Origin: a virus
Lineage: Duplodnaviria > Heunggongvirae > Uroviricota > Caudoviricetes
Reading direction: 5' to 3' (one strand)
Virus record (IMG/VR): IMGVR_UViG_3300042401_002002
DNA: 64,000 nt
The position numbers and the translations under genes are program-made. Shown one piece after another: positions 17,518-43,711 of the stretch. The stretch's first letter is position 1. Each line of letters opens with the position of its first letter. The notes below the pieces were generated by a model. That model was given only the letters and a program-made list of their open reading frames with translations. It was not told where the DNA came from and made no database searches.

Positions 17518-19212
17518 ATGGCTGATATAACAATTTTACCAAAAACCAAACAAGAACTACAAGAAGAGTGGTTGAAATGCGCTCTTGATTTTGAATATTT
17601 TGCTGAGACTTATCTTAAAGTTGAAGATAAAAAAAAAGGTGGGTGGTTTCCTTTTAAATTAATGCCACATCAAAAAGATGTTTTTGAATTATATGAAAAT
17701 AATGAATTAGCTATAACTAATAAATATAGACAATCAGGTATTACCACCTTTACTTGTGCTTATTATACATGGAAAATGTGTTTCAATAAAAATATAAGAA
17801 TTGCAGTAATCGGTTCAAACTTAGAACATGCTAAAACTGAACTATTAAAACGTATATCAGATAATATTGAAGGTTTACCTGATTTTTTACGTATAGAAAC
17901 AATAATAGATTCACAAAAATATAAAACATATAAAAATGGTGGTGAAATAATCGCTAAAGCAGCTCAAGGAAATGCACTCAGGGGGACGAGTCCGAATCAT
18001 ATCATCCTAGATGAATTAGCACATTATGAGGACCTTGATAGTTTTTGGGAATCATCAAAATCAGCTTTTTCTATGGGGGGGTGTGTGAGAATCATAAGTA
18101 CCCCTTTAGGGTCAAGTAACATATTTTTTCAACTTTTTGATTTAGCTAAACAAGGTAAAAGTAGTTTTAAACCTATCGAATTAAAATGGTATCATGATAT
18201 ACGATTAAATACTGACCTTAAATGGGTTTCTGGGTCAGATGAAATTATTGAGTACAATAAAGATAAACAAAAAGAATTAATTTTAAAAGGTTATAAACCT
18301 ACATCTACATGGTATGAAAAAGAATGTGCAGGGTTTAATTATGATAAAAAGAAAATTGCACAAGAATTAGAAGGCGAATTCCTAGGTTCAGGTAATAGTT
18401 TTATAGATGAAGAATACATTAACCAACAGGAATTAGAAAACGTCTCAAAACCTATGTATTATGAACATAGTGATAAAAACTTTTGGATATGGAAATATCC
18501 TTTAAATAGTGAACAAAAATTTATATTTGGTGTTGATGTTTCGTTAGGTACAGCAGAAGACTATAGTACTATTACTGTAATGGATATGTTTAATTTAGAA
18601 ATGTATGCTGAATATAGAGGTAAAATACCACCAGATTTACTTGCTGATGTTGTTTACAAATTCGCAAACATATTCAATCATGCTTATGTTTGTGTTGATA
18701 TAACAGGTGGTTATGGTGTTGCAACAGTACAAAAATTAATTAATGAATATAGTTATAAAAATTTACATTACACTGAAATTAAAGATAGATATATAAAAGA
18801 TAGACTAGAAGGTGAAGCTAATGGTGATTTACGACCAGGTTTAACTATTGGGAAAAATCGCATGGAAATATTAGAATGTATGGCTAAAGCATTCAGAAGT
18901 GGTGAATTAATTATTAGGTCATCTAGATTAATTGATGAATTAAAAGGTTTTAAAGATGTGGGTGGGAAACCTGACCATAAAAGAGGTGGTACATCTGATT
19001 TAATTTTTTCATTAGCTATTGCATTATATGTTGGTGATAATAGTGGAACTACCATACTTAAAGCACTTGAAAGAACTAAATCTATGGTTTCATCATGGGT
19101 TGTTGTAAACTATAATAATGAAGATTTTGCTAGAGAACAAATTAAATTTGAAGAAAATTTAAAAAATAACGAAAATAATAATAAAATCCCTAGTTTATTT
19201 TATTTTAATTGA
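17518..19212 (+). CDS. terL: Terminase large subunit
   Basis: N-terminal ATPase with Walker-A-like YRQSGITT and Walker-B IILDELAH; C-terminal nuclease-like acidic residues. Confidence 0.8.
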   Translation: MADITILPKTKQELQEEWLKCALDFEYFAETYLKVEDKKKGGWFPFKLMPHQKDVFELYENNELAITNKYRQSGITTFTCAYYTWKMCFNKNIRIAVIGSNLEHAKTELLKRISDNIEGLPDFLRIETIIDSQKYKTYKNGGEIIAKAAQGNALRGTSPNHIILDELAHYEDLDSFWESSKSAFSMGGCVRIISTPLGSSNIFFQLFDLAKQGKSSFKPIELKWYHDIRLNTDLKWVSGSDEIIEYNKDKQKELILKGYKPTSTWYEKECAGFNYDKKKIAQELEGEFLGSGNSFIDEEYINQQELENVSKPMYYEHSDKNFWIWKYPLNSEQKFIFGVDVSLGTAEDYSTITVMDMFNLEMYAEYRGKIPPDLLADVVYKFANIFNHAYVCVDITGGYGVATVQKLINEYSYKNLHYTEIKDRYIKDRLEGEANGDLRPGLTIGKNRMEILECMAKAFRSGELIIRSSRLIDELKGFKDVGGKPDHKRGGTSDLIFSLAIALYVGDNSGTTILKALERTKSMVSSWVVVNYNNEDFAREQIKFEENLKNNENNNKIPSLFYFN

Positions 19213-19246: not shown

Positions 19247-22039
19247 ATGGCTAAAAAGTATTTTACTCCAGAACAAGTTAATCATATTATTGATTGTTAC
19301 GAAAATAAAAATTATTCTATTAAAAATATAGCTGTGGAATACAGATGTGACCCTGGTACTATTACTAGGGTCTTAAATGAAAATGACGTAAAAATTAAAG
19401 ATTATAGGATACCATTTACGCCTGAACAAGAAGAGTATATTAAAATACAATATAACAATGGTAAAAGTACAGTCAAATTAGGTGAAGAATTTGGTTGTTC
19501 AGCTAAAGCTATTGGGTCTTTCTTGAAAAGAAATGAAATAGTTGTAACTAAATCAACATTATTGTGTGATGAAGATATATCTAACATTATTTTAGATTAC
19601 ATTGAAAATTCACTTACTTTAGAAGTTATTTCCGCAAAATATAATATTGCTAAAAGAAGACTTTCAGATATTTTACAAGAAAAGGGTATTGAAACAAAAA
19701 ATAAATTATATAAAACATTTTCAGAAGAAGATGTTAAAGAGATTATCAAAATGTACACTATCGGATTTATTAGTTTAAAGAAGATAGGTGAAAAATATAA
19801 TTGCGATAAAAGTGTTATTAGTAATCTTCTAAAGAAAAACAAGATTGAAATATATGATAGAAACCTTAAACACCATTTAATTGACGATGAAACCGTTTGT
19901 AATGAACATATTAACGGTTTATCAATAAATGATTTAAGTAAAAAATATGGTTGTTCTGACACAGTTATTACTAGAATTTTACAAAAAAATAACATTGAAA
20001 CTATTAATCATAGATTTTATAATTTTTCTAAAGAACAAGTTGATGAATTAATTAGGTTATACACAACTGAACTTAAACCAACATCTGAGTTATCTGTTTT
20101 ATTTGACTGTACTGTTGATAGAGTTAATAAGATTTTACATGATAATAATGTATCTTTAATTAAACAAGCAGCAAATAAAATAACTTTCTCTACTGAAGAT
20201 ATTGATAAAATAAAAAGTTTACACAAAACAATGTCTAACAAAGAAATAGGTAGTTTATTTAATTGTAGTCCTGATACAATCAGACGACTTCTAAATAAGG
20301 AAGGTGTTAATACAAGTAAAAATTATCAAACCGAACAAAGTGTCATTGATAATATTGTTATTGATTATTCAATAAATAAACTTAGTACTAGAACATTATC
20401 TGAAAAATATAATTTCTCTCAAACGTATATTAGTAAGGTTTTAAAAGAAAATAATGTTGAAGCTAATTTAAGATATATAATTTCAGTTTCTTCTGATGAA
20501 GAGAAAGAAATTATTAGAAAACATGTTGAAGATAGAAAAACTTTAACTGAGATTAGTAATGAATATGGCATTAATATTAAATTTTTAAGTGAAAATATCT
20601 TTAAAAAGAATAATATTAATATTCAACTTAAAAAACCTGCTCAAGAGAAATTAAATATTGAACAAATATTAACCGAACTAAAAACAGGTAAAGGTATTTC
20701 AACTATCGCTAGAGAGAATAATTGTTCTTTCGGTACTATAAACTCAATAGCTATTAGTAATGGAATTAAAACAACAAATGAATTAACAGATGTTTTTACT
20801 AATGAGTTGATTCTTAAAAAAGAAAATAGAAGATTTGTATTTGATAATTATCAAACTAAATTTGTTATTGAAAAATACACTAATGGTGCAACAATAAAAC
20901 AAATTAGTAATTTCCTTAAAGTTGACTATACTACAATCCACAGGGTACTTGTAAATAACAATATAAAGGTTCAACATAAATTATTAAAAACATTTACTGA
21001 ACAAGTTGAAGAAGATATCTGTTCAGAATACGTTGATAATAACAAAACTATGTTAGAAATTGGCAAACTATACAATGTGTCACAATCAGTTATTAGAAAA
21101 GTTCTAATAAAACACAACGTAGAAATTACCAATAATTATTATTCATCGGTTAACGAAAATAAAATTCGTTATATTCTTGGTTATTTTATTCCAACTATTC
21201 ACAAGAAATCAGATTGTGATAATATTTTGCAAGCTAAGGAAATAGACATTATTGATTATACCAAAAAGATTGGTATAGAATATAACGGAACATATTTTCA
21301 TAGAAGCGAGAATAAATCCGAAACTTATCATATTGATAAAACAAAAGAAGCTTCGTCTGCCGGTTATAAACTGTATCATGTTTTTGATGATGAATATGTA
21401 CATGATTCTGTTAAAATAATAAACCGACTTTTGAAGTTATTTAAAACAGGTTTGTATATTACTGAAGATACTTATGATGAACTAGAAGAATGTTTCTTCA
21501 GCAATACTAGTTACGATGAAATTTACATTGAAGGTTTAGTTAAAACCAAACTACCACTTTCTGAATGTACGATAACTAAAGTTGAACCAACTAAACAATA
21601 TTATCAGTTTTACACTGCGTTTGGTTTATTGAAATCTTACGATGAAACTATTAATAATGTCAATTACAATATTGAACATAAAGAATACGGTTTAATTGGT
21701 TATATTAGTATTAATAAAACAACCAATACTGTTGAAAATTTATTCATTGAAGATGATTATGTAATTACAGGTTTAAACAAAAGAATCTTTGATTTATATT
21801 TAAATGAATTTAAACCAACTGAGTTATTTATTGAAATTGACAGAAGATACGCTTCAGAGCCAGAGAATTTATCTGGTTTATCATTTGAGTTAATTAACGA
21901 AACAGAACCTAGAATTCATTATTTTAAGAATTATTCAAGATATATCGCAACTAATGAAACTAATTTAGAATTGGATTCTGATGTTGAGTGGAACATTATT
22001 CACGATTGTGGGACTTGGAAATATAAATTGATTAAATAA
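19247..22039 (+). CDS. 930-aa protein with about 13 tandem HTH-like modules and a C-terminal putative Vsr/DUF559-like nuclease domain
   Basis: Repeated ~48-aa units (..IA.EY.CS..TI.R.L..N.I..), then IDIIDYTKKIGIEYNGTYFH. Confidence 0.55.
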   Translation: MAKKYFTPEQVNHIIDCYENKNYSIKNIAVEYRCDPGTITRVLNENDVKIKDYRIPFTPEQEEYIKIQYNNGKSTVKLGEEFGCSAKAIGSFLKRNEIVVTKSTLLCDEDISNIILDYIENSLTLEVISAKYNIAKRRLSDILQEKGIETKNKLYKTFSEEDVKEIIKMYTIGFISLKKIGEKYNCDKSVISNLLKKNKIEIYDRNLKHHLIDDETVCNEHINGLSINDLSKKYGCSDTVITRILQKNNIETINHRFYNFSKEQVDELIRLYTTELKPTSELSVLFDCTVDRVNKILHDNNVSLIKQAANKITFSTEDIDKIKSLHKTMSNKEIGSLFNCSPDTIRRLLNKEGVNTSKNYQTEQSVIDNIVIDYSINKLSTRTLSEKYNFSQTYISKVLKENNVEANLRYIISVSSDEEKEIIRKHVEDRKTLTEISNEYGINIKFLSENIFKKNNINIQLKKPAQEKLNIEQILTELKTGKGISTIARENNCSFGTINSIAISNGIKTTNELTDVFTNELILKKENRRFVFDNYQTKFVIEKYTNGATIKQISNFLKVDYTTIHRVLVNNNIKVQHKLLKTFTEQVEEDICSEYVDNNKTMLEIGKLYNVSQSVIRKVLIKHNVEITNNYYSSVNENKIRYILGYFIPTIHKKSDCDNILQAKEIDIIDYTKKIGIEYNGTYFHRSENKSETYHIDKTKEASSAGYKLYHVFDDEYVHDSVKIINRLLKLFKTGLYITEDTYDELEECFFSNTSYDEIYIEGLVKTKLPLSECTITKVEPTKQYYQFYTAFGLLKSYDETINNVNYNIEHKEYGLIGYISINKTTNTVENLFIEDDYVITGLNKRIFDLYLNEFKPTELFIEIDRRYASEPENLSGLSFELINETEPRIHYFKNYSRYIATNETNLELDSDVEWNIIHDCGTWKYKLIK

Positions 22040-35132: not shown

Positions 35133-35675
35133 ATGAAGAAAATACAATTCACCGAAGAAGAACTTTTACTATTATTAAACGATGTAGTAAAAGAACAACA
35201 AAATAAAGTAGAAATTTGGACCAACAATCTTTCGTTAAAAGAAGTTGTTGAAAAAGTTGGTTTTAAAATAGTTAAACAATGAAACTAGAAATAGCAAATT
35301 ATAGTGATAGAAGATTTATTACAAGTAAATCGTTTGAAGTAATAAATAAGGAAATCCCTGTTAAAGAATATTGGTTTAACAACTTAAGAATATATGAAAG
35401 ATGAAATTAAATATCGATAACTTATATACAATTTCTTTTGAAGAAAGTAATGCGTATTTCTTTCTTATACAATTAACCCCAGCAAAGAAACATTTACTAA
35501 ACAATCTAAGGATTTATAAAAGATGAAACTAATAGTTGCTTCAAATCCATATATCTATTTTAATTCAACTGATAGTTTCAGAGAATTATTTAATTTTATT
35601 ACTAACGGAGATAAAATTAAGTTAGATAATTGGATGAATAAAAATAAACCTGATTTTATAGTAATGAAAAGATAA
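35133..35675 (+). other. Locus B of the mini-gene family: four overlapping mini-ORFs (35133..35282, 35279..35404, 35401..35526, 35523..35675)
   Basis: ATGA overlaps; C-termini YWFNNLRIYER and LNNLRIYKR; N-termini MKLEI, MKLNI, MKLIV. Confidence 0.55.
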
Positions 35676-36020: not shown

Positions 36021-36551
36021 ATGGAATTAAAAATCAACAACAAATATATTTTGCTTGAAAAGAATAATGATTATGTTTTCAAAGCATTAATTAATGATGT
36101 TACTAAAACATCTATTCAAATTACTAACTTAGATAACGGAAGTGGTCCTGTTAGAACATTATTAACAGCGTTTCATGAACAACTTGATGTTATTGAGTTT
36201 ATTGATGATAAACAAATAGAATCTCAAATAACAAATTCTATAAATAAATTAAATAAACTAGATAACATAGTAACTAAAGAACTTGTCTCTTTACCGACTA
36301 AGGTAATAAAAGATAATTTAGAAATAGAATCAGCAATGATGAATGTTTTTCTAGAAAATCAAAAACCTTTAGAACCGGATTTTCAAGATGCACTTAATGA
36401 GTTAACTAAAGAATCCGGAAAGGAAATACCAATTCGTTTTATTTCACCTCAAATTAATGTTCGTGAAATTGATAATATTATTTCTGATGAACCAGATTAC
36501 ATTCAACCAACCAAACCTTTAACAAACAATTGGTGTTTTAAAAGCAAGTAA
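36021..36551 (+). CDS. Hypothetical protein
   Basis: 176-aa ORF. Confidence 0.5.
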   Translation: MELKINNKYILLEKNNDYVFKALINDVTKTSIQITNLDNGSGPVRTLLTAFHEQLDVIEFIDDKQIESQITNSINKLNKLDNIVTKELVSLPTKVIKDNLEIESAMMNVFLENQKPLEPDFQDALNELTKESGKEIPIRFISPQINVREIDNIISDEPDYIQPTKPLTNNWCFKSK

Positions 36552-36611
36552 ATAATCTTTAATTTTATGGAAGTTTTATTTAATTTCTACTATTTAAAAT
36601 AAATAACTACA

Positions 36612-37184
36612 ATGTACTACAAACTATCTGATTACGCAAAAAAATTTAACATTACCTACCGTGCAGCGTGGAATCGCTTCAAAGCTGGTAAAATTAAAGA
36701 TGCTTTTGTTGATGATACAAACCATGTTTGTATCCCTGTTCATAAAATGGACTCAATGTCTAAAAACATGGTAATTTATTCCAGAGTTTCTTCTAATGAA
36801 ATGAAAGAAAACTTAGAACGTCAATCTGAAAGATTGACCAACTACGCTATCTCTAACGGTTATACTATCATTAAAGTTGTTAAAGAAGTAGGCTCTGGTC
36901 TGAACGACCACAGACCTAAACTTATGAAAGTTTTAACAGACAACAACTTTGATTTTATTTTAGTTGAAAATAAAGATAGATTAACCCGTTTCGGGTTTAA
37001 TTATCTTGAAACTCTTTTAAAAACTCAAAACAAACAAATTATCGTTGTTAACAATACAAATGATGATAAAACAGATATCATTAATGATTTAGTTTCTATT
37101 ATCTACTCATTCTCTGCCCGTATCTACGGGTTAAGAAGAGCTAAAAACAAACAAAAAGAAATACTTAATATTATAAATAATTAA
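36612..37184 (+). CDS. tnpA: IS607-type TnpA: MerR-like HTH followed by a serine-recombinase catalytic domain
   Basis: N-terminal HTH (YKLSDYAKKFNITYRAAWNRF) then VIYSRVSSNEMKENLERQ with the catalytic Ser. Confidence 0.8.
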   Translation: MYYKLSDYAKKFNITYRAAWNRFKAGKIKDAFVDDTNHVCIPVHKMDSMSKNMVIYSRVSSNEMKENLERQSERLTNYAISNGYTIIKVVKEVGSGLNDHRPKLMKVLTDNNFDFILVENKDRLTRFGFNYLETLLKTQNKQIIVVNNTNDDKTDIINDLVSIIYSFSARIYGLRRAKNKQKEILNIINN

Positions 37185-37191
37185 TTCTTTA

Positions 37192-38496
37192 ATGTACGTT
37201 ACTGAAAAACATATAATCAACAAATTACATCGCTTCTACGAAGAGATTGATTCTCTGTGTTTTAAAAGTAAAAACTTGTATAATAAAGCTCTTTATACTG
37301 TAAGACAAGAATTTATTAATACTTCTAAATTAAAAGAACAAGGCATGGTTGACCATGCTAATTATTTTAATTATTATGATATTAATAGACAATTCATTGA
37401 CAGTAAAGATGTTGATTATTATAATTTACCTGTTAAAATTAGTAATCAAACCCTTATGTTGGTTGATAAGAACTTTAAATCTTTCTTTGCTTTATGTAAA
37501 AAGTACAAAAGCAACAAAAATAATTTAACAGGTAGACCAAAGTTACCTAACTACTTGCACAAAACCAAGGGTCGTTACGTAGTAACGTATGAACTTGGTG
37601 CAATATCTAGCAAGTTTTTAAAACAAAATGTAATTAAACTAAGTGGGACTAACATTGAAGTACCCGTCATTAACAAACACAACGGTGTTTTAAAAATGGT
37701 ACGATTAGTACCCATGTCAAATAAAAAATATAAAATTGAAGTTGTTTATGATGTAGAAGAAAAGAACATGAATTTAAATAAAGACAATATAATAAGTATT
37801 GATTACGGAGTTAATAATTTAATGACTATAACATCAAATGTAGAAGGCTTTCAGCCTCGTATAATTAAAGGTGGTCATGTTAAATCAATAAATCAGTTTT
37901 ATAATAAAGTCAAAAGTGAGTTGCAGTCGCAACTACCAAACCATTCTAGTTTGAAAGACAAAGAAGGTAAACCTCAAATCTTACAGAACTCTAATAAGAT
38001 TAACACTTTAACACATAAGCGTAACTGTAAGATTGAACATGAGTTTCATGAGTACACAAACAAAATATTGCAACTGTGTTTACAGTATAATATTGGTACA
38101 ATAGTTATAGGTTGTAACAAGGGTTGGAAACAGGGAACAAATATGTCAAAGAAAGTTAACCAAAACTTTGTTTCGATACCTTACACAAAACTGACACATC
38201 AGTTAAAGTACAAAAGTGAGTTGATAGGTAATGTTGTTGTGGAACAAGAGGAAAGTTACACATCAAAGGCAAGCTTTGTTGATGATGACTTGATACCCAC
38301 CTACAATAAAAACCAAGCTAAGAGTTACAGTTTCAGTGGAAACCGTAAGCTAAGAGGTTTATACGTTACAAAATTAGGTATCAAAGTTAACTCAGATGTA
38401 AACGGTAGTTATAATATACTGAGAAAGTATATGTTAAGTATCGGTAGGATATTAGACAGCAGTCGCTGTAAATTAGTACCGATAATAATAGATTAA
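37192..38496 (+). CDS. tnpB: TnpB (RuvC-like RNA-guided nuclease family); the zinc-finger Cys pairs appear to be absent
   Basis: RuvC-I SIDYGVNNL, RuvC-II EESYTSKASFVDD and RuvC-III DVNGSYNILRKY are present, but there is no CxxC..CxxC between II and III. Confidence 0.8.
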   Translation: MYVTEKHIINKLHRFYEEIDSLCFKSKNLYNKALYTVRQEFINTSKLKEQGMVDHANYFNYYDINRQFIDSKDVDYYNLPVKISNQTLMLVDKNFKSFFALCKKYKSNKNNLTGRPKLPNYLHKTKGRYVVTYELGAISSKFLKQNVIKLSGTNIEVPVINKHNGVLKMVRLVPMSNKKYKIEVVYDVEEKNMNLNKDNIISIDYGVNNLMTITSNVEGFQPRIIKGGHVKSINQFYNKVKSELQSQLPNHSSLKDKEGKPQILQNSNKINTLTHKRNCKIEHEFHEYTNKILQLCLQYNIGTIVIGCNKGWKQGTNMSKKVNQNFVSIPYTKLTHQLKYKSELIGNVVVEQEESYTSKASFVDDDLIPTYNKNQAKSYSFSGNRKLRGLYVTKLGIKVNSDVNGSYNILRKYMLSIGRILDSSRCKLVPIIID

Positions 38497-38619
38497 ACGC
38501 AAGGGCGGATTGTTCCAAACGGGACATGAAACAGATAGAGGGTTAGCAGTTAACCCAGTGTGAGTTCAAAGTCCACGAAAAGAGAGTAATGGTATTATAT
38601 ACCATGAAATTTTGAACTG
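38495..38619 (+). ncRNA. Putative TnpB omega/reRNA scaffold derived from the IS right end
   Basis: 125-bp segment starting at the tnpB stop; repeated inverted at 42134..42258 with about 92% identity, and homology ends sharply at ...gaaattttgaactg. Confidence 0.45.
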
Positions 38620-38777
38620 TAGTAATAATAGTTGTAATACATTCATGTTATTCGTTTATTGATGAAAAGATAAACGGAAAAACTATAGAATCAAAAATGA
38701 TAGTTAAACCGGATTATAGGTTAGAAACAAACGGTAAAAATATTGATACAATTTATATTTACAAATTTGAATAGTTT

Positions 38778-39383: not shown

Positions 39384-39512
39384 ATGAAACTTAAGATAAT
39401 AATTACAGGTTTTTATAATGCTAAATCTAAATTTCAACTAACCAAATTTGTAGGTTATTTTGGTATTGGAAACACATGGTCAAATAATTTAAGAATTTAC
39501 TCAAGATATTAG
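39384..39512 (+). CDS. Solo mini-gene family member (locus C)
   Basis: MKLKIIITG...NTWSNNLRIYSRY. Confidence 0.45.
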   Translation: MKLKIIITGFYNAKSKFQLTKFVGYFGIGNTWSNNLRIYSRY

Positions 39513-40901: not shown

Positions 40902-42102
40902 ATGAAATTAAATATAAACAACGTAAGTTATTTAGAGTTTAATATAACAAATGGTATTGATGTTGTATCAGGTAGTTATAAAGGTGTTTTTAATACAAAT
41001 TATTGGTTAAACAATTTAATAATTTATGAAAGATGAAACTTACAATCAGTTCTTTTAGTAAACAGAAAATAATAAATTCATATATTTATCTTTCTTTACG
41101 AGGATATAGTGAAAAAATAGGACCACATTGGTATAATGAAATTTTAATTTACAAAAGATGAAATTAGAAATATTCAAAGGTCCTGGTCTAACTGGTGTTA
41201 GTCAATTTAAAAATACGTTTATTTATGATTTAATAACAGAAGGAATTAAAATTGATACATCAATTTGGATTAATGATTTAATAATTTCCATAAGATGAAA
41301 TTAATCATAGATAACAGAGTATTATATCGTCATGGTAAAATTACAGATTCATTCGCTCATGATATTATTACAGGGATTAACGCTGATAAAATAAATACTT
41401 TAGGTTGGTTAAACGAAATAACAATATTCACAAGATGAAATTAAAAATTGACATCCAAACCCGTGAAATTAATTCATTTAATTATAGTAATTTATATGTG
41501 AGTTATTTAAAATATCCGTATCATAAAATAAACTTAAATTGGTTAAATGAAATGACAATATTCAGAAAATGAAACTCATATTATATTATAAAGAATCTGA
41601 TTACAGTTTTAAAGATTCACCACATTTTCAAGCCTTAATTGATTGTAATACAATAACAAGTAATAAAGGTTGGGTCAATTACATTATAACATTTAAAAGA
41701 TGAAACTCACAATATACAATAGAAGTTACGTTGATTTTAATAGAACAGGTTATTATAAAATAATAACAACTGATTATGTAAAAATAGACCACTATGATTA
41801 TTGTAACTATATTTTAATAATGAAGAGATGAAACTAAAAACATTATTTTATCCAGACACCTGGGTTTTTACACAATCTGAGAAATACAGGTTATGTAATT
41901 CAGAACTGGAATATAAAATTAAACGACTAGATGTTTGGACCAATAACATACATATATTTGTAAGATGAAACTTACGGTAGAAACAGATTATGGAAACTTT
42001 GTACCAGGACGACCTGATTATGATTTACTAACAGGTTCATTTGAAAATGAAAAAATATCAATAGAATATTGGTGCAACTTGTTGGTTATTTATACGAGAT
42101 AA
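40902..42102 (+). other. Locus D of the mini-gene family: tandem array of 9 complete mini-ORFs (starts 40902, 41033, 41158, 41295, 41435, 41569, 41700, 41828, 41965), with a 10th truncated at 42107..42151
   Basis: Units of 129-144 nt, eight joined by ATGA overlaps. Conserved N-terminus MKL.I and C-terminus W.N.[IL].I[YF].R with a variable middle. Confidence 0.6.
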
Positions 42103-42133
42103 AAAGATGAAATTAAAAATACACGATAGAGAA

Positions 42134-42258
42134 CAGTTCAAAATTTCATAGTATTTTATACCATTACTCTCTTTTCGTGGACTTTGACCTCACACTGGGT
42201 TAACTGCTAACCCTCTATCTGTTTCATGTTCCCTTTGGAACAATCCACCCTTGCGTTT
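42134..42258 (-). mobile_element. Inverted solo copy of the IS607 right-end / omega-RNA-scaffold sequence, inserted into mini-gene unit 10
   Basis: The reverse complement matches 38495..38619 apart from about 7 substitutions and a 2-3-bp indel near the AT-rich distal end. The mini-gene reading frame breaks exactly at its edge. Confidence 0.6.
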
Positions 42259-42679
42259 GTTTTATGTCACTTAACTTATTTGATTCAACAAGCTACGCTT
42301 GTTGTCTTGTTATATTGTGACGATTCTAAAACACTCTTGCGTTTTACGTTTACGAGAACAAAACCTTCAGGTTTTGATTTGTAAACAACCTAATACCACT
42401 ATGTCAAATAATCAACAACCTTTTGTTGTTGAGCAAACAAAGGTACTAATTTAAAATGATAGAACAAAATAAATTAGTACTTTATTTTAAATAGTATATT
42501 TTAAATAAAACTTCTATAAAATTAAAGATTTATTGGTCGCTTTGACTACACCTCTACTTTAAAGATAGTGGTGCATGTTTCTTAATGTCCAAAGGCGGTA
42601 CTTATTATTTGTCGGTTATTAATGAAAATAATACGTTCATTAAATATAATTGGTTAAATAATATAACAATATATGACAA

Positions 42680-43711
42680 ATGAAATTAAAAATACATAAA
42701 ATAATTTATTATTCATTTACTGAATATCGTATTAGCACTTCACTAATAAAAGGTTTTACTAAATCAAAAGAAACCAAAGATTGGTTAAATTACATAACAG
42801 TTTATAATAGAAGAGAAAATGAAACTTAACATAGATAATAGAATTGAAATATTTAAAAAAACATTACTTTATGATGATATTTTTTTAAACCCAAAAACAA
42901 TTAAAATAGATTTATCAGGTTGGTTTGAAATAACTATATTTATAAGATGAAATTAAAAATTGATTACAAAATAATGGTACACCACAGATTTACTGTAGAA
43001 ATATTTTGTAAATCTAACTGGTTTATTCCTGAATACTGGATTAATAAAATTATTGTTTTTGAAAGATGAAACTTAACACACTACACAAAGAGTATAATTT
43101 TAATGATACAAATATGTATGTATTTCTGGTAACAAGCAAAATAAGAACCGTTACTGCATTGTCATTAAAAACAATTTTTAATAAGTTAATTACTTACGAA
43201 AGATGAAATTAGAAATAACTAAATCAGTACATAACTTCAAGAATACATTTACTCTTGAAATATTGTTAAATAAATTCACAGCACAAATAACTCATTCAGC
43301 CTGGTGCAACACAATAGATGTTTATATAAGGTAAATTTATGAAATTAAAAATTCAAAACACAGATTGGTTTCTTGAATTCACAGGTTATCATCCACTTAT
43401 AACAGGTGGATATACAAAACCACAACCACCAATTTCAAAAAACTGGACCAACAAATTAACATTATTTATACGATGAAACTTATTACAGAAAATAAACAAT
43501 ATAATTTTAATAATACCAGAACAAGTTCATTTCTGATATCCGGTAAAATAAGAACTGTTACAGCATTGTTAATTAAAACAAATATTAATAAGTTAATTAC
43601 TTACGAAAGATGAAACTTAAAATTTGGTACCACAATCACAACTTTAAAAATACAAACGTATATATTTCATTAACCATCGGTTATAGTTGTAAAATAAATC
43701 ATGACAACTGA
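42680..43711 (+). other. Locus E of the mini-gene family: 8 mini-ORFs (42680..42829, 42819..42950, 42947..43069, 43066..43206, 43203..43334, 43339..43476, 43473..43613, 43610..43711)
   Basis: Same MKL.I / W.N.I.I(Y/F).R architecture. Units 15 and 18 are close paralogs (..SKIRTVTAL..KT..NKLITYER). Confidence 0.6.

What the first reader, a model, noticed from the sequence alone, without database searches (positions are those of the whole stretch)
36560..38619. IS607-type element (tnpA serine recombinase + tnpB) in a phage, with a TnpB lacking the zinc-finger cysteines
The 190-aa ORF has a MerR-like HTH followed by a resolvase-type catalytic serine motif (YSRVSS..Q), followed immediately by a 434-aa TnpB with RuvC-I/II/III residues (D in SIDYG, E in EESYTS, D in DVNGSYNI). 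The about 60 residues between RuvC-II and RuvC-III contain no cysteine, whereas canonical TnpB has CxxC...CxxC there. The 125 bp starting at the tnpB stop form a discrete conserved block that recurs elsewhere (42134..42258), which fits the right-end omega-RNA scaffold of TnpB systems. The predicted guide would be the adjacent tagtaataatagttgtaat. This could be an active or domesticated RNA-guided nuclease carried by a phage.
Basis: partly seen in the sequence, partly recalled or inferred. Interest (0 to 1): 0.75.

Follow-up and report, generated by a model that had tools for sequence, protein, structure and literature searches.

The report
IS607 transposon with TnpB in phage
A large T4-like phage carries an intact IS607-type jumping gene with an RNA-guided nuclease (TnpB) and its guide-RNA gene, plus a 418-bp protein-less miniature copy; this is a well-formed new example of a known kind of element, not a new kind.

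Summary
Window 36534..38620 is a 2087-bp IS607-family element: tnpA (serine recombinase, 36612..37184), tnpB (37192..38496), and a 133-nt right-end block. The block ends exactly where related copies diverge (…AACTGT, 38620).

The block behaves as a TnpB guide-RNA (omega-RNA) scaffold. In 24 homologues 92% of cells pair, against 37-47% in slid controls. It has a pseudoknot between a hairpin loop and the last six scaffold bases, and that pseudoknot covaries cleanly (C-G in 15 sequences, U-A in 9, none broken).

The second copy (42133..42265) is inverted. It is the right end of a 418-bp miniature element (42133..42550, minus strand) with a matching left end and its own guide. This element interrupts one of many tiny tandem phage ORFs.

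TnpB has no cysteine in the zinc-finger segment. Both traits are invariant in 143 of 143 representatives of a large clade, and both have been described in general terms in the literature.

Both ends share a TGT core, and G precedes the left-end core in 10 of 11 sites. This predicts a GTGT target motif against CTGT at the element's own right end. Nuclease and transposase activity were not tested.

The parts
36021..36551 (+). Phage gene truncated by the insertion. It is 176 aa, and its last four codons (FKSK) and stop codon come from the element's left end.
   Evidence: A 291-aa homologue (P0276/L043) runs on past ...TNNWC. Nucleotide homology between L043 and the window stops at 36535.
36534..36611 (+). 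Left end (LE). It begins with the TGT core (36534-36536), followed by TTTAAAAGCAAG. G36533 is the last flank base.
   Evidence: The 78-nt block 36532-36609 recurs inverted at 42475-42552. LE starts of 11 copies were aligned by eye. The unoccupied site in L043 fixes the boundary.
36612..37184 (+). tnpA, an IS607-type serine recombinase of 190 aa. The catalytic-serine motif YSRVSS is at residues 56-61 (36777-36794).
   Evidence: NCBIfam NF033518 transpos_IS607 scores 169 bits (cutoff 110) over profile positions 2-187 of 187. Pfam Resolvase E = 4e-18.
37192..38496 (+). tnpB, 434 aa. Key residues: D204 (37801-37803), Gly307 at the canonical RuvC-II Glu position (38110-38112), shifted Glu354 (38251-38253) and D402 (38395-38397). 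Residues 355-401 contain no Cys or His.
   Evidence: dN/dS against relatives is 0.08-0.18.
38488..38620 (+). Right end (RE), read as the omega-RNA scaffold: three hairpins plus a pseudoknot. The pseudoknot pairs the loop GCAGUU (38547-38552) with the terminal AACUGU (38615-38620). The last three bases are the TGT core.
   Evidence: Relevant calls: 6, 22, 23, 36-39, 55, 57, 76, 106, 109. All copies diverge immediately after ...ACTGT.
38621..38640 (+). Predicted guide of the full copy (AGTAATAATAGTTGTAATAC). The true length is unknown; about 16-20 nt is assumed by analogy with characterised systems.
   Evidence: This is the first base after the conserved RE. A 99.9%-identical element in another phage contig (L010/L012) has a different sequence from this base on. 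The sequence matches nowhere else in the window.
42133..42550 (-). Miniature non-autonomous element, 418 bp, with no ORF. Parts (all on the minus strand):
- LE 42475-42550
- internal module 42378-42408, found only in miniature copies
- RE / omega-RNA scaffold 42133-42265
   Evidence: Relevant calls: 6-8, 55, 93-95. Removing 415 nt (one TGT kept) restores an intact 53-aa MKL... ORF.
42113..42132 (-). Predicted guide of the miniature element (TCTCTATCGTGTATTTTTAA). It is the reverse complement of the 5' end of the interrupted small ORF.
42107..42683 (+). Small tandem-array ORF (MKLKIHDRE...NWLNNITIYDK) split by the miniature element. The N-terminal part is 42107-42132. The C-terminal part is 42551-42683.

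Best explanation
Window 36534..38620 is an autonomous IS607-family insertion sequence in the genome of a large T4-like phage.

Inferred mechanism, by analogy with characterised IS607 elements:
- TnpA is a small serine recombinase. It excises and integrates the element as a circle by crossing over within a short core, here TGT, that is present at both ends.
- TnpB is an RNA-guided RuvC nuclease from a large clade in which the canonical RuvC-II Glu is Gly, a Glu about 47 residues downstream substitutes for it, and the zinc finger is lost.
- The 133-nt right end encodes the omega-RNA scaffold. Its last six bases pair with a hairpin loop to form a pseudoknot, and transcription runs on into the flank to give the guide.
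- After excision, or in a co-infecting genome that lacks the element, the joint reads ...G-TGT + target and would be cut. Recombinational repair from an occupied copy then restores or spreads the element (retention or homing).
- The element's own right end reads C-TGT and would be spared.

The 418-bp element at 42133..42550 is a non-autonomous relative. It keeps both ends, an omega-RNA scaffold and its own guide, so it would depend on TnpA and TnpB supplied in trans.

Shown here: gene identities, element boundaries, conservation and structure of the RNA, multiple insertion sites, and purifying selection.
Inferred only: expression, cleavage, the target motif (TAM), and homing.
For: Gene identities
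- TnpA matches the IS607 equivalog and TnpB the guided_TnpB model, both above curated cutoffs.
- The TnpB fold is confirmed.
- D204, G307, E354 and D402 are invariant in 143 of 143 representatives.
- A profile alignment to Cas12f places the canonical Glu opposite VIGxNKxW.
- This matches the published Glu-to-Gly rearranged clade (PMC10691335) and the shifted Glu six residues before the zinc-finger position (10.1101/2023.08.09.552727).
- tnpB dN/dS is 0.08-0.18, solo copies included.

Boundaries
- A 99.9%-identical copy on another contig diverges exactly after 38620.
- An unoccupied homologous site loses homology at 36535.
- There are no terminal inverted repeats and no target duplication.

RNA
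- A covariance model finds the block at the 3' end of tnpB in relatives down to about 40% protein identity.
- 92% of cells pair, against 37-47% in slid controls, and 17 of 25 pairs show compensatory changes.
- The pseudoknot pair is C-G in 15 sequences and U-A in 9, with none broken.
- Frequent G-U pairs fit the tnpB-sense strand only.
- A guide-adjacent pseudoknot is a known omega-RNA hallmark.

Mobility
- Full, solo-tnpB and miniature copies occur at different sites.
- Removing the miniature element restores an ORF.

Target motif
- G precedes the left-end TGT in 10 of 11 distinct sites, in DNA with about 25% G+C.
- This parallels TGGG against TCGG in CboIStron and GGG against CGG in ISXfa1.
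Against: - There are no expression or cleavage data.
- No member of this zinc-finger-less, Gly-substituted clade was found with a solved structure, and none is cited as biochemically tested in the papers read. PMC10691335 says the consequences of the rearrangement remain to be studied.
- Coordinates of the predicted structure were not available, so active-site geometry was not measured.
- The alignments used for pair counting were fitted to the model, which biases them towards the structure.
- The G-before-TGT rule has one exception. In L011, the register that restores the split DUF723 ORF puts T before TGT.
- The present right flank of the full copy is not the ancestral neighbour of its left flank. 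The TAM+target joint for this copy may therefore never have existed as an empty site.
- The right-end block could also carry TnpA-binding sites. An AAAMGCRAS motif occurs in both LE and RE.
Confidence: 0.8

Rival explanations
1. The element is an immobile relic. The genes look intact, but transposition and RNA-guided cleavage no longer occur in this phage, and the conserved right end merely persists.
For: No activity data exist. The right flank of the full copy is not the ancestral continuation of the left flank. Only two related contigs carry this exact copy. The clade lacks the zinc finger and the canonical Glu.
Against: - Both ORFs are full length against their profiles.
- dN/dS is about 0.16.
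- The catalytic D/E/D residues are invariant.
- Several distinct insertion sites exist, including miniature copies.
- The RNA structure is kept by compensatory changes.
Confidence: 0.12
2. The 133-nt right-end block is conserved mainly as DNA, as TnpA recombination or binding sites or as a transcription terminator for tnpB, and not as a guide-RNA scaffold.
For: IS607 ends need subterminal TnpA-binding repeats (PMC6188088, abstract only, seen). An AAAMGCRAS motif occurs in both LE (36540) and RE (38495), and twice in the miniature copy. Much of the core is invariant, so it gives no covariation evidence either way.
Against: - Solo-tnpB elements without tnpA keep the block.
- 17 of 25 pairs show compensatory changes.
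- A long-range loop-tail pair switches C-G to U-A with no broken case.
- G-U pairs make the structure strand-specific.
- The only terminator-like hit in the block lies on the opposite strand.
- The two roles are not mutually exclusive.
Confidence: 0.06
3. TnpB and its guide RNAs have been co-opted by the phage. They might act against competing phages or host DNA, or regulate genes, rather than maintain the transposon.
For: Three findings fit this reading:
- The phage carries several guide-bearing loci: full, solo and miniature copies.
- Miniature copies keep a conserved promoter-like internal module that tnpB-bearing copies lack.
- TnpB domestication is documented elsewhere (10.1101/2023.11.30.569447; abstract listed).
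Against: Each guide matches only its own flank in the window. The catalytic residues are intact. The architecture, with ends, core and tnpA, is that of a mobile element. No fixed, orthologous locus was seen across phages.
Confidence: 0.05

Closest known systems
IS607-family elements with characterised TnpA(Ser)+TnpB: CboIStron (Clostridium botulinum), ISXfa1, H. pylori IS607
   Same: - A serine-recombinase tnpA is followed by tnpB.
- There are no inverted repeats and no target duplication.
- A short identical core sits at both ends.
- The omega-RNA scaffold ends at the right-end core and the guide is the flank.
- The empty-site motif differs from the right-end 'self' motif by a G-to-C change: TGGG/TCGG and GGG/CGG there, predicted GTGT/CTGT here.
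   Different: The core is TGT (TAT in bacterial relatives), not GG. There is no group I intron: Rfam found nothing, and only 78 bp lie upstream of tnpA. The TnpB has a shifted Glu and no zinc finger. The host replicon is a jumbo phage.
RuvC-II-rearranged TnpB clades (RIIr, e.g. RIIr-5) of Altae-Tran et al. 2023, PMC10691335
   Same: The canonical RuvC-II Glu is replaced by Gly, with a conserved alternative Glu on the next strand. The RuvC-III motif is NADxN-type. The paper also notes zinc-finger loss in 'some large branches'.
   Different: I could not place this protein in a named branch because no tree or supplement was used. The paper says the zinc finger is conserved in major clades other than RIIIr-4, so this may be a sub-branch.
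Fanzor2 and 'pro-Fanzor' IS607 TnpBs (Yoon et al. 2023; Mimivirus Fanzor2, PDB 9b0l)
   Same: The RuvC-II Glu is shifted to six residues before the zinc-finger position. The ancestry is IS607. The carrier is a large virus. The omega-RNA has a guide-adjacent pseudoknot. The fold matches (E = 1e-12).
   Different: RuvC-I is SIDYG (D-hydrophobic-G), not the DPG motif that defines pro-Fanzors. Fanzors keep a zinc finger. Sequence identity is only about 14%.
ISFba1-type IS607 TnpB with RAGATH-18-derived guide RNA (PMC11061315; PDB 8iaz)
   Same: It is an IS607-associated TnpB of similar size and fold, guided by a right-end RNA.
   Different: The RNA family differs: no RAGATH-18 or any other Rfam match even at E <= 10. 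Its TAM is AGGAG or GAGGG. It has canonical RuvC residues (D194, E290, D371).
PATE-like protein-less IS200/IS605 derivatives that encode omega-RNAs (Meers et al. 2023, PMC10055086)
   Same: These are miniature elements with both ends and an omega-RNA. They need TnpA and TnpB in trans.
   Different: The elements here belong to an IS607 (serine recombinase) family. They sit in phage DNA. They share an internal module of their own across two RE subfamilies.

Membership tests
IS607 family insertion sequence | tnpA encodes a small serine recombinase with an N-terminal DNA-binding domain | tested here: met
   NCBIfam transpos_IS607 (equivalog) scores 169 bits, cutoff 110, over profile positions 2-187 of 187. 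Pfam Resolvase covers residues 54-175. YSRVSS is at 56-61. The HTH was not tested separately.
IS607 family insertion sequence | No terminal inverted repeats and no target-site duplication | tested here: met
   LE against the reverse complement of RE gives a best local score of 8, against a shuffle mean of 7.9. The flanks share nothing beyond the TGT core.
IS607 family insertion sequence | An identical short core at both ends, the serine-recombinase crossover site | tested here: met
   TGT lies at 36534-36536 and at 38618-38620, and at both ends of the miniature copy. Removing 415 nt restores an ORF. The core differs from the GG of characterised members.
IS607 family insertion sequence | Transposition through a circular intermediate, catalysed by TnpA | not testable with these tools
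   This needs an excision or integration assay.
TnpB (OMEGA RNA-guided nuclease) | RuvC fold with a D-E-D catalytic triad | tested here: met
   D204, E354 and D402 are invariant in 143 of 143 representatives. The Glu is at the shifted position and the canonical position is Gly307. The fold matches TnpB, Cas12f and Fanzor2. Active-site geometry was not measured.
TnpB (OMEGA RNA-guided nuclease) | C4 zinc finger (CxxC...CxxC) between RuvC-II and RuvC-III; typical of TnpB but not universal | tested here: not met
   Residues 355-401 have 0 Cys and 0 His. 0 of 143 clade representatives have the motif. The Pfam TNB domain is still detected.
TnpB (OMEGA RNA-guided nuclease) | A structured guide-RNA scaffold at or overlapping the 3' end of tnpB, ending at the transposon right end, with a guide-adjacent pseudoknot | tested here: met
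   Conservation, covariation and pseudoknot covariation are shown. The position holds in all relatives. Expression was not tested.
TnpB (OMEGA RNA-guided nuclease) | TAM next to the left end, matching the transposase target | tested here: inconclusive
   G precedes the TGT core in 10 of 11 sites. L011 is an exception in the register that restores its ORF. No cleavage data exist.
Rfam omega-RNA-related families (e.g. RAGATH-18, IS605-orfB motifs) | A match to the family covariance model | tested here: not met
   No match at gathering thresholds over the whole window. No relevant match at E <= 10 in 38200-38700 or 42050-42650.
Pro-Fanzor / Fanzor2 lineage | A DPG motif in RuvC-I together with a shifted RuvC-II Glu | tested here: not met
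   The shifted Glu is present, but RuvC-I reads SIDYG (family consensus SIDLG).
IStron (IS607/IS605 with group I intron) | A group I intron at the left end | tested here: not met
   Rfam finds no intron. Only 78 bp separate the LE boundary from the tnpA start.

The most novel reading that the evidence does not exclude
In jumbo T4-like phages this zinc-finger-less TnpB and a set of guide-RNA loci (full, solo and promoter-bearing miniature copies) act as an RNA-guided homing or gene-drive system between co-infecting phage genomes. This would resemble T4 homing endonucleases. The resulting breaks and repair would create the abrupt synteny breakpoints seen at the element's right end. The miniature copies would be a self-standing lineage of mobile guide-RNA genes rather than decay products.
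Probability: 0.2. Interest if true: 0.7.

Novelty: new member of a known kind. Interest (0 to 1): 0.4.

Why it matters
The element is a clean natural example of a complete IS607 / TnpB / omega-RNA system inside a virulent-type jumbo phage. Autonomous, solo-tnpB and protein-less guide-only forms occur side by side.

It yields four testable predictions:
- a GTGT target motif, against a CTGT self motif at the element's own right end;
- a TGT crossover core instead of GG;
- a pseudoknot built from the transposon's own terminal bases;
- a compact 434-aa nuclease that works without a zinc finger and with a shifted catalytic Glu.

Testing these would show how the transposase core, the target motif and the guide-RNA fold constrain the same few bases. 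It would also show whether TnpB drives homing in multi-copy replicating phage DNA, as has been reported for plasmids (10.1101/2025.02.20.638934). None of this changes current understanding, and the zinc-finger loss that motivated the finding is a known clade-level trait.

Tried and rejected
1. Rfam found nothing relevant at gathering thresholds over the whole window, or at E <= 10 on both element loci.
2. A single-sequence search of solved structures gave only marginal Cas12f hits. A family profile was needed.
3. GenBank phages hold no close relative of the region, only 66-70% matches to resolvase or tnpB pieces.
4. I first read the sequence after 38620 as the original C-terminus of the upstream gene. 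The 291-aa homologue P0276/L043 shows the ancestral gene continues differently, and that continuation is absent from the window, so I rejected this.
5. I considered inversion between the two inverted RE copies to explain the different right flank in L010/L012. By inspection, the predicted junction (TCTCTATCG...) does not match L010's flank (TATACC...).
6. Crossover at the first GT of GGTGT would remove 417 nt and break the frame of the small ORF. Only 415 nt (shared TGT) or +/-3 nt fits.
7. Searches for an unoccupied site of the miniature copy in IMG/VR, and for relatives of the upstream gene there, found nothing.
8. An exact RE-core scan of 185,579 reference genomes found nothing. Bacterial relatives have a diverged core and were only found with the covariance model.
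9. The sigma-70 scan found a TTAACT-17-TATAAT site at 38387-38415, but promoter-like sites are only marginally enriched in the region (20 against 13.5 expected). I did not use it as evidence.
Full report
**Observation**

ORF 36612..37184 (190 aa) scores 169 bits against NCBIfam transpos_IS607, an equivalog model with cutoff 110, over the whole profile. It also hits Pfam Resolvase. ORF 37192..38496 (434 aa) scores 144 bits against guided_TnpB (cutoff 100) and hits Pfam OrfB_IS605 and Cas12f1-like_TNB.

The block at the tnpB stop recurs once: 38488-38620 against 42133-42265, 133 nt, 92% identity. Exact 23-mers from it occur twice in the window, against none expected. The recurrence is an inverted copy, not a direct one.

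**Setting**

The window is phage DNA. ORF 17518..19212 is a large terminase. The G+C content is about 25%. The identical TnpB sequence sits on contigs of 265-309 kb that also carry a Gp23-type capsid gene. GenBank phages hold no close relative.

**Boundaries**

A contig from another sample (L010, and its IMG/VR counterpart L012) carries the same element at 99.9% identity. It diverges completely from the window after position 38620. All relatives end in ...ACTGT and then differ.

On the left, a 291-aa homologue of the upstream 176-aa gene (P0276 on L043) shows an unoccupied site. Nucleotide homology with the window stops at 36535, within ...AATTGGTG. The element therefore spans 36534..38620 (2087 bp) and has TGT at both ends. 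There are no terminal inverted repeats and no target duplication, as expected for IS607.

The insertion truncates the upstream gene. The present right flank is not that gene's ancestral continuation, because its C-terminal half is absent from the window and from L010/L012. Three relatives thus share the left flank and have three unrelated right flanks. The right end is a synteny breakpoint.

**The second copy is a miniature element**

The left-end block (36532-36609) also recurs inverted, at 42475-42552. Locus 42133..42550 (minus strand, 418 bp) has both ends, no ORF and a full-scoring RNA scaffold. It interrupts one member of a tandem array of 40-50-aa MKL... ORFs.

Deleting 415 nt (one TGT kept) restores an intact 53-aa ORF with the family's N- and C-terminal signatures. 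Crossover at the neighbouring GT (417 nt) does not restore it.

This element is not a recent deletion of the resident full copy. Its ends are only 82% and 92% identical to those of the full copy.

Protein-less copies also occur in a second subfamily (L036, L038/L040, L039). All miniature copies share an internal module, TTTGACAT(A/G)GTGGTA..AGGTTGTTTACAAA...TAAACGTAAAA, that tnpB-bearing copies lack. It contains a TTGACA hexamer and a conserved hairpin. I read it as a possible promoter and 5' stem for the guide RNA, but this is inference.

A solo tnpB copy (P0121, 93% identical) splits a DUF723 gene elsewhere in the same phage lineage.

**TnpB**

The segment between Glu354 and Asp402 (47 residues) has no Cys or His. 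This is a clade trait. Most of the closest 120 homologues lack Cys there. Among 143 representatives of 50%-identity clusters none has CxxC...CxxC, and 129 have at most one Cys.

A family profile aligned to Cas12f structures puts the canonical RuvC-II Glu (...iqmEdL) opposite VIGxNKxW. Gly307 is invariant in 143 of 143 representatives, as are D204, E354 and D402.

The AlphaFold model (pLDDT 88, pTM 0.78) has a strand at 301-308 ending at Gly307, and a strand at 348-353 leading into Glu354. Foldseek matches AsCas12f, ISFba1 TnpB, Mimivirus Fanzor2 and ISDra2 TnpB, with E-values from 1e-16 to 1e-10.

This is the rearranged active site described for large TnpB clades: 'glutamate ... replaced with glycine', compensated by a Glu on the next strand (PMC10691335). 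Fanzors and related IS607 TnpBs have the same feature, with the Glu six residues before the zinc-finger position (10.1101/2023.08.09.552727). Here Glu354 + 6 is Ala360, and some relatives have Cys at that position.

[quoted passage not shown] RuvC-I reads SIDYG, not DPG, so the protein is not a pro-Fanzor.

tnpB is under purifying selection, with dN/dS of 0.08-0.18 against six relatives, solo copies included.

**The right end as guide-RNA scaffold**

The block folds better than shuffled sequence (z = -3.0, or -4.8 with 110 nt of upstream sequence).

A covariance model built from eight copies finds the block at the tnpB 3' end, or in miniature copies, in 23 places in phage-like contigs. It finds it more weakly at the 3' end of tnpB in ten bacterial relatives, mostly cyanobacteria, with about 40-46% protein identity.

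On 24 sequences, 92% of cells form pairs, against 37-47% when partners are slid. Compensatory changes occur in 17 of 25 pairs.

A pseudoknot pairs the loop GCAGUU of the central hairpin with the last six scaffold bases, AACUGU. One of its pairs is C-G in 15 sequences and U-A in 9, with none broken. A guide-adjacent pseudoknot is a documented and functionally tested feature of TnpB and Fanzor2 guide RNAs. Many G-U pairs make the structure specific to the tnpB-sense strand.

Caveats apply. The alignments were fitted to the model, and much of the core is invariant. Rfam has no matching family.

**Core and target motif**

Both ends carry TGT. In the bacterial relatives the right end is ...ACTAT. 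The terminal bases therefore serve three roles at once: putative crossover core, last bases of the scaffold, and one strand of the pseudoknot.

The base 5' of the left-end TGT is G in 10 of 11 distinct insertion sites, in DNA with about 25% G+C. The right end always has C at the equivalent position.

The characterised parallels are CboIStron (TAM TGGG against self TCGG; 10.1101/2023.11.20.567912) and ISXfa1 (GGG against CGG). By analogy I predict a TAM of about 5'-GTGT and a spared CTGT at the element's own right end. L011 is an exception in the register that restores its split ORF, so this remains a prediction.

Each predicted guide matches only its own flank in the window.

**Mechanism**

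The mechanism is inferred from established work on IS605 and IS607 TnpB (PMC10055086):
- TnpA moves the element through a circular intermediate.
- TnpB, loaded with right-end RNA, cuts the vacated or naive site.
- Recombination with an occupied copy restores or spreads the element.

Replicating phage DNA is multi-copy and recombination-proficient, which is the situation in which a TnpB gene drive was shown for plasmids (10.1101/2025.02.20.638934). The miniature copies would rely on TnpA and TnpB in trans, like omega-RNA-bearing PATEs.

**Verdict**

- The second copy is inverted and belongs to a miniature element.
- The left end starts at 36534.
- The RuvC-II Glu is a shifted one.
- The loss of the zinc finger is a trait of a large clade, already described in general terms.

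This is a new, well-resolved member of a known kind of element. Interest is moderate.

Noticed in passing
window 35279-35675, 39384-39512, 40902-43613 (+ strand): There are about 20 tandem paralogous mini-ORFs of 40-50 aa. They begin MKL and end W.N.L.IY.R, and most are joined by overlapping ATGA stop/start codons. Their function is unknown. One member is the target of the miniature element.
   Followed up: partly
window 38620/38621; L010 1497/1498; L012 14555; L043 about 1863: The element's right end is a synteny breakpoint. Three related phage contigs share the left flank but have unrelated sequence to the right, over at least 14.5 kb in L012. This points to recombination or deletion associated with the insertion sequence.
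   Followed up: partly
window 42378-42408 (- strand); L036, L038, L040, L039: Miniature copies from two different right-end subfamilies share an internal module: TTTGACAT.GTGGTA..AGGTTGTTTACAAA plus a hairpin. The tnpB-bearing copies lack it. It may be a promoter and 5' stem for the guide RNA, and it suggests the miniature copies form a lineage of their own.
   Followed up: partly
L011 511-2477 (same phage lineage, outside the window): A solo tnpB copy (93% aa identity, no tnpA) splits a two-repeat DUF723 gene close to the Gp23 major capsid gene. Precise removal restores one continuous ORF.
   Followed up: partly
window 58127, 59791, 60580, 62001, 62630 (- strand); also 51024 (+): The 9-mer AAACGCAAC recurs. 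The degenerate motif AAAMGCRAS has 14 matches in the window against 2.3 expected. Apart from the copies at the element ends, these cluster on the minus strand at 58-63 kb, so they may be a phage regulatory or promoter motif.
   Followed up: no
window 19247-22039 (+): A 930-aa ORF lies directly after the large terminase. It has many repeated hits to HNH/homing-endonuclease and DNA-binding (NUMOD-like) PHROG families, so it may be a fused or multi-domain homing-endonuclease-like protein.
   Followed up: no
L018 3829-3860: In a more distant tnpA+tnpB relative (56% aa identity), the right end abuts sequence resembling the reverse complement of a tRNA T-arm and 3' end (GGGATTTGAACCCACATG). This suggests insertion at or in a tRNA gene.
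   Followed up: no
L012 12003-12111 (+): A weak covariance-model hit (35 bits) ends in AACTGT and has no tnpB upstream. It may be a diverged further miniature or right-end family in the sister phage.
   Followed up: no
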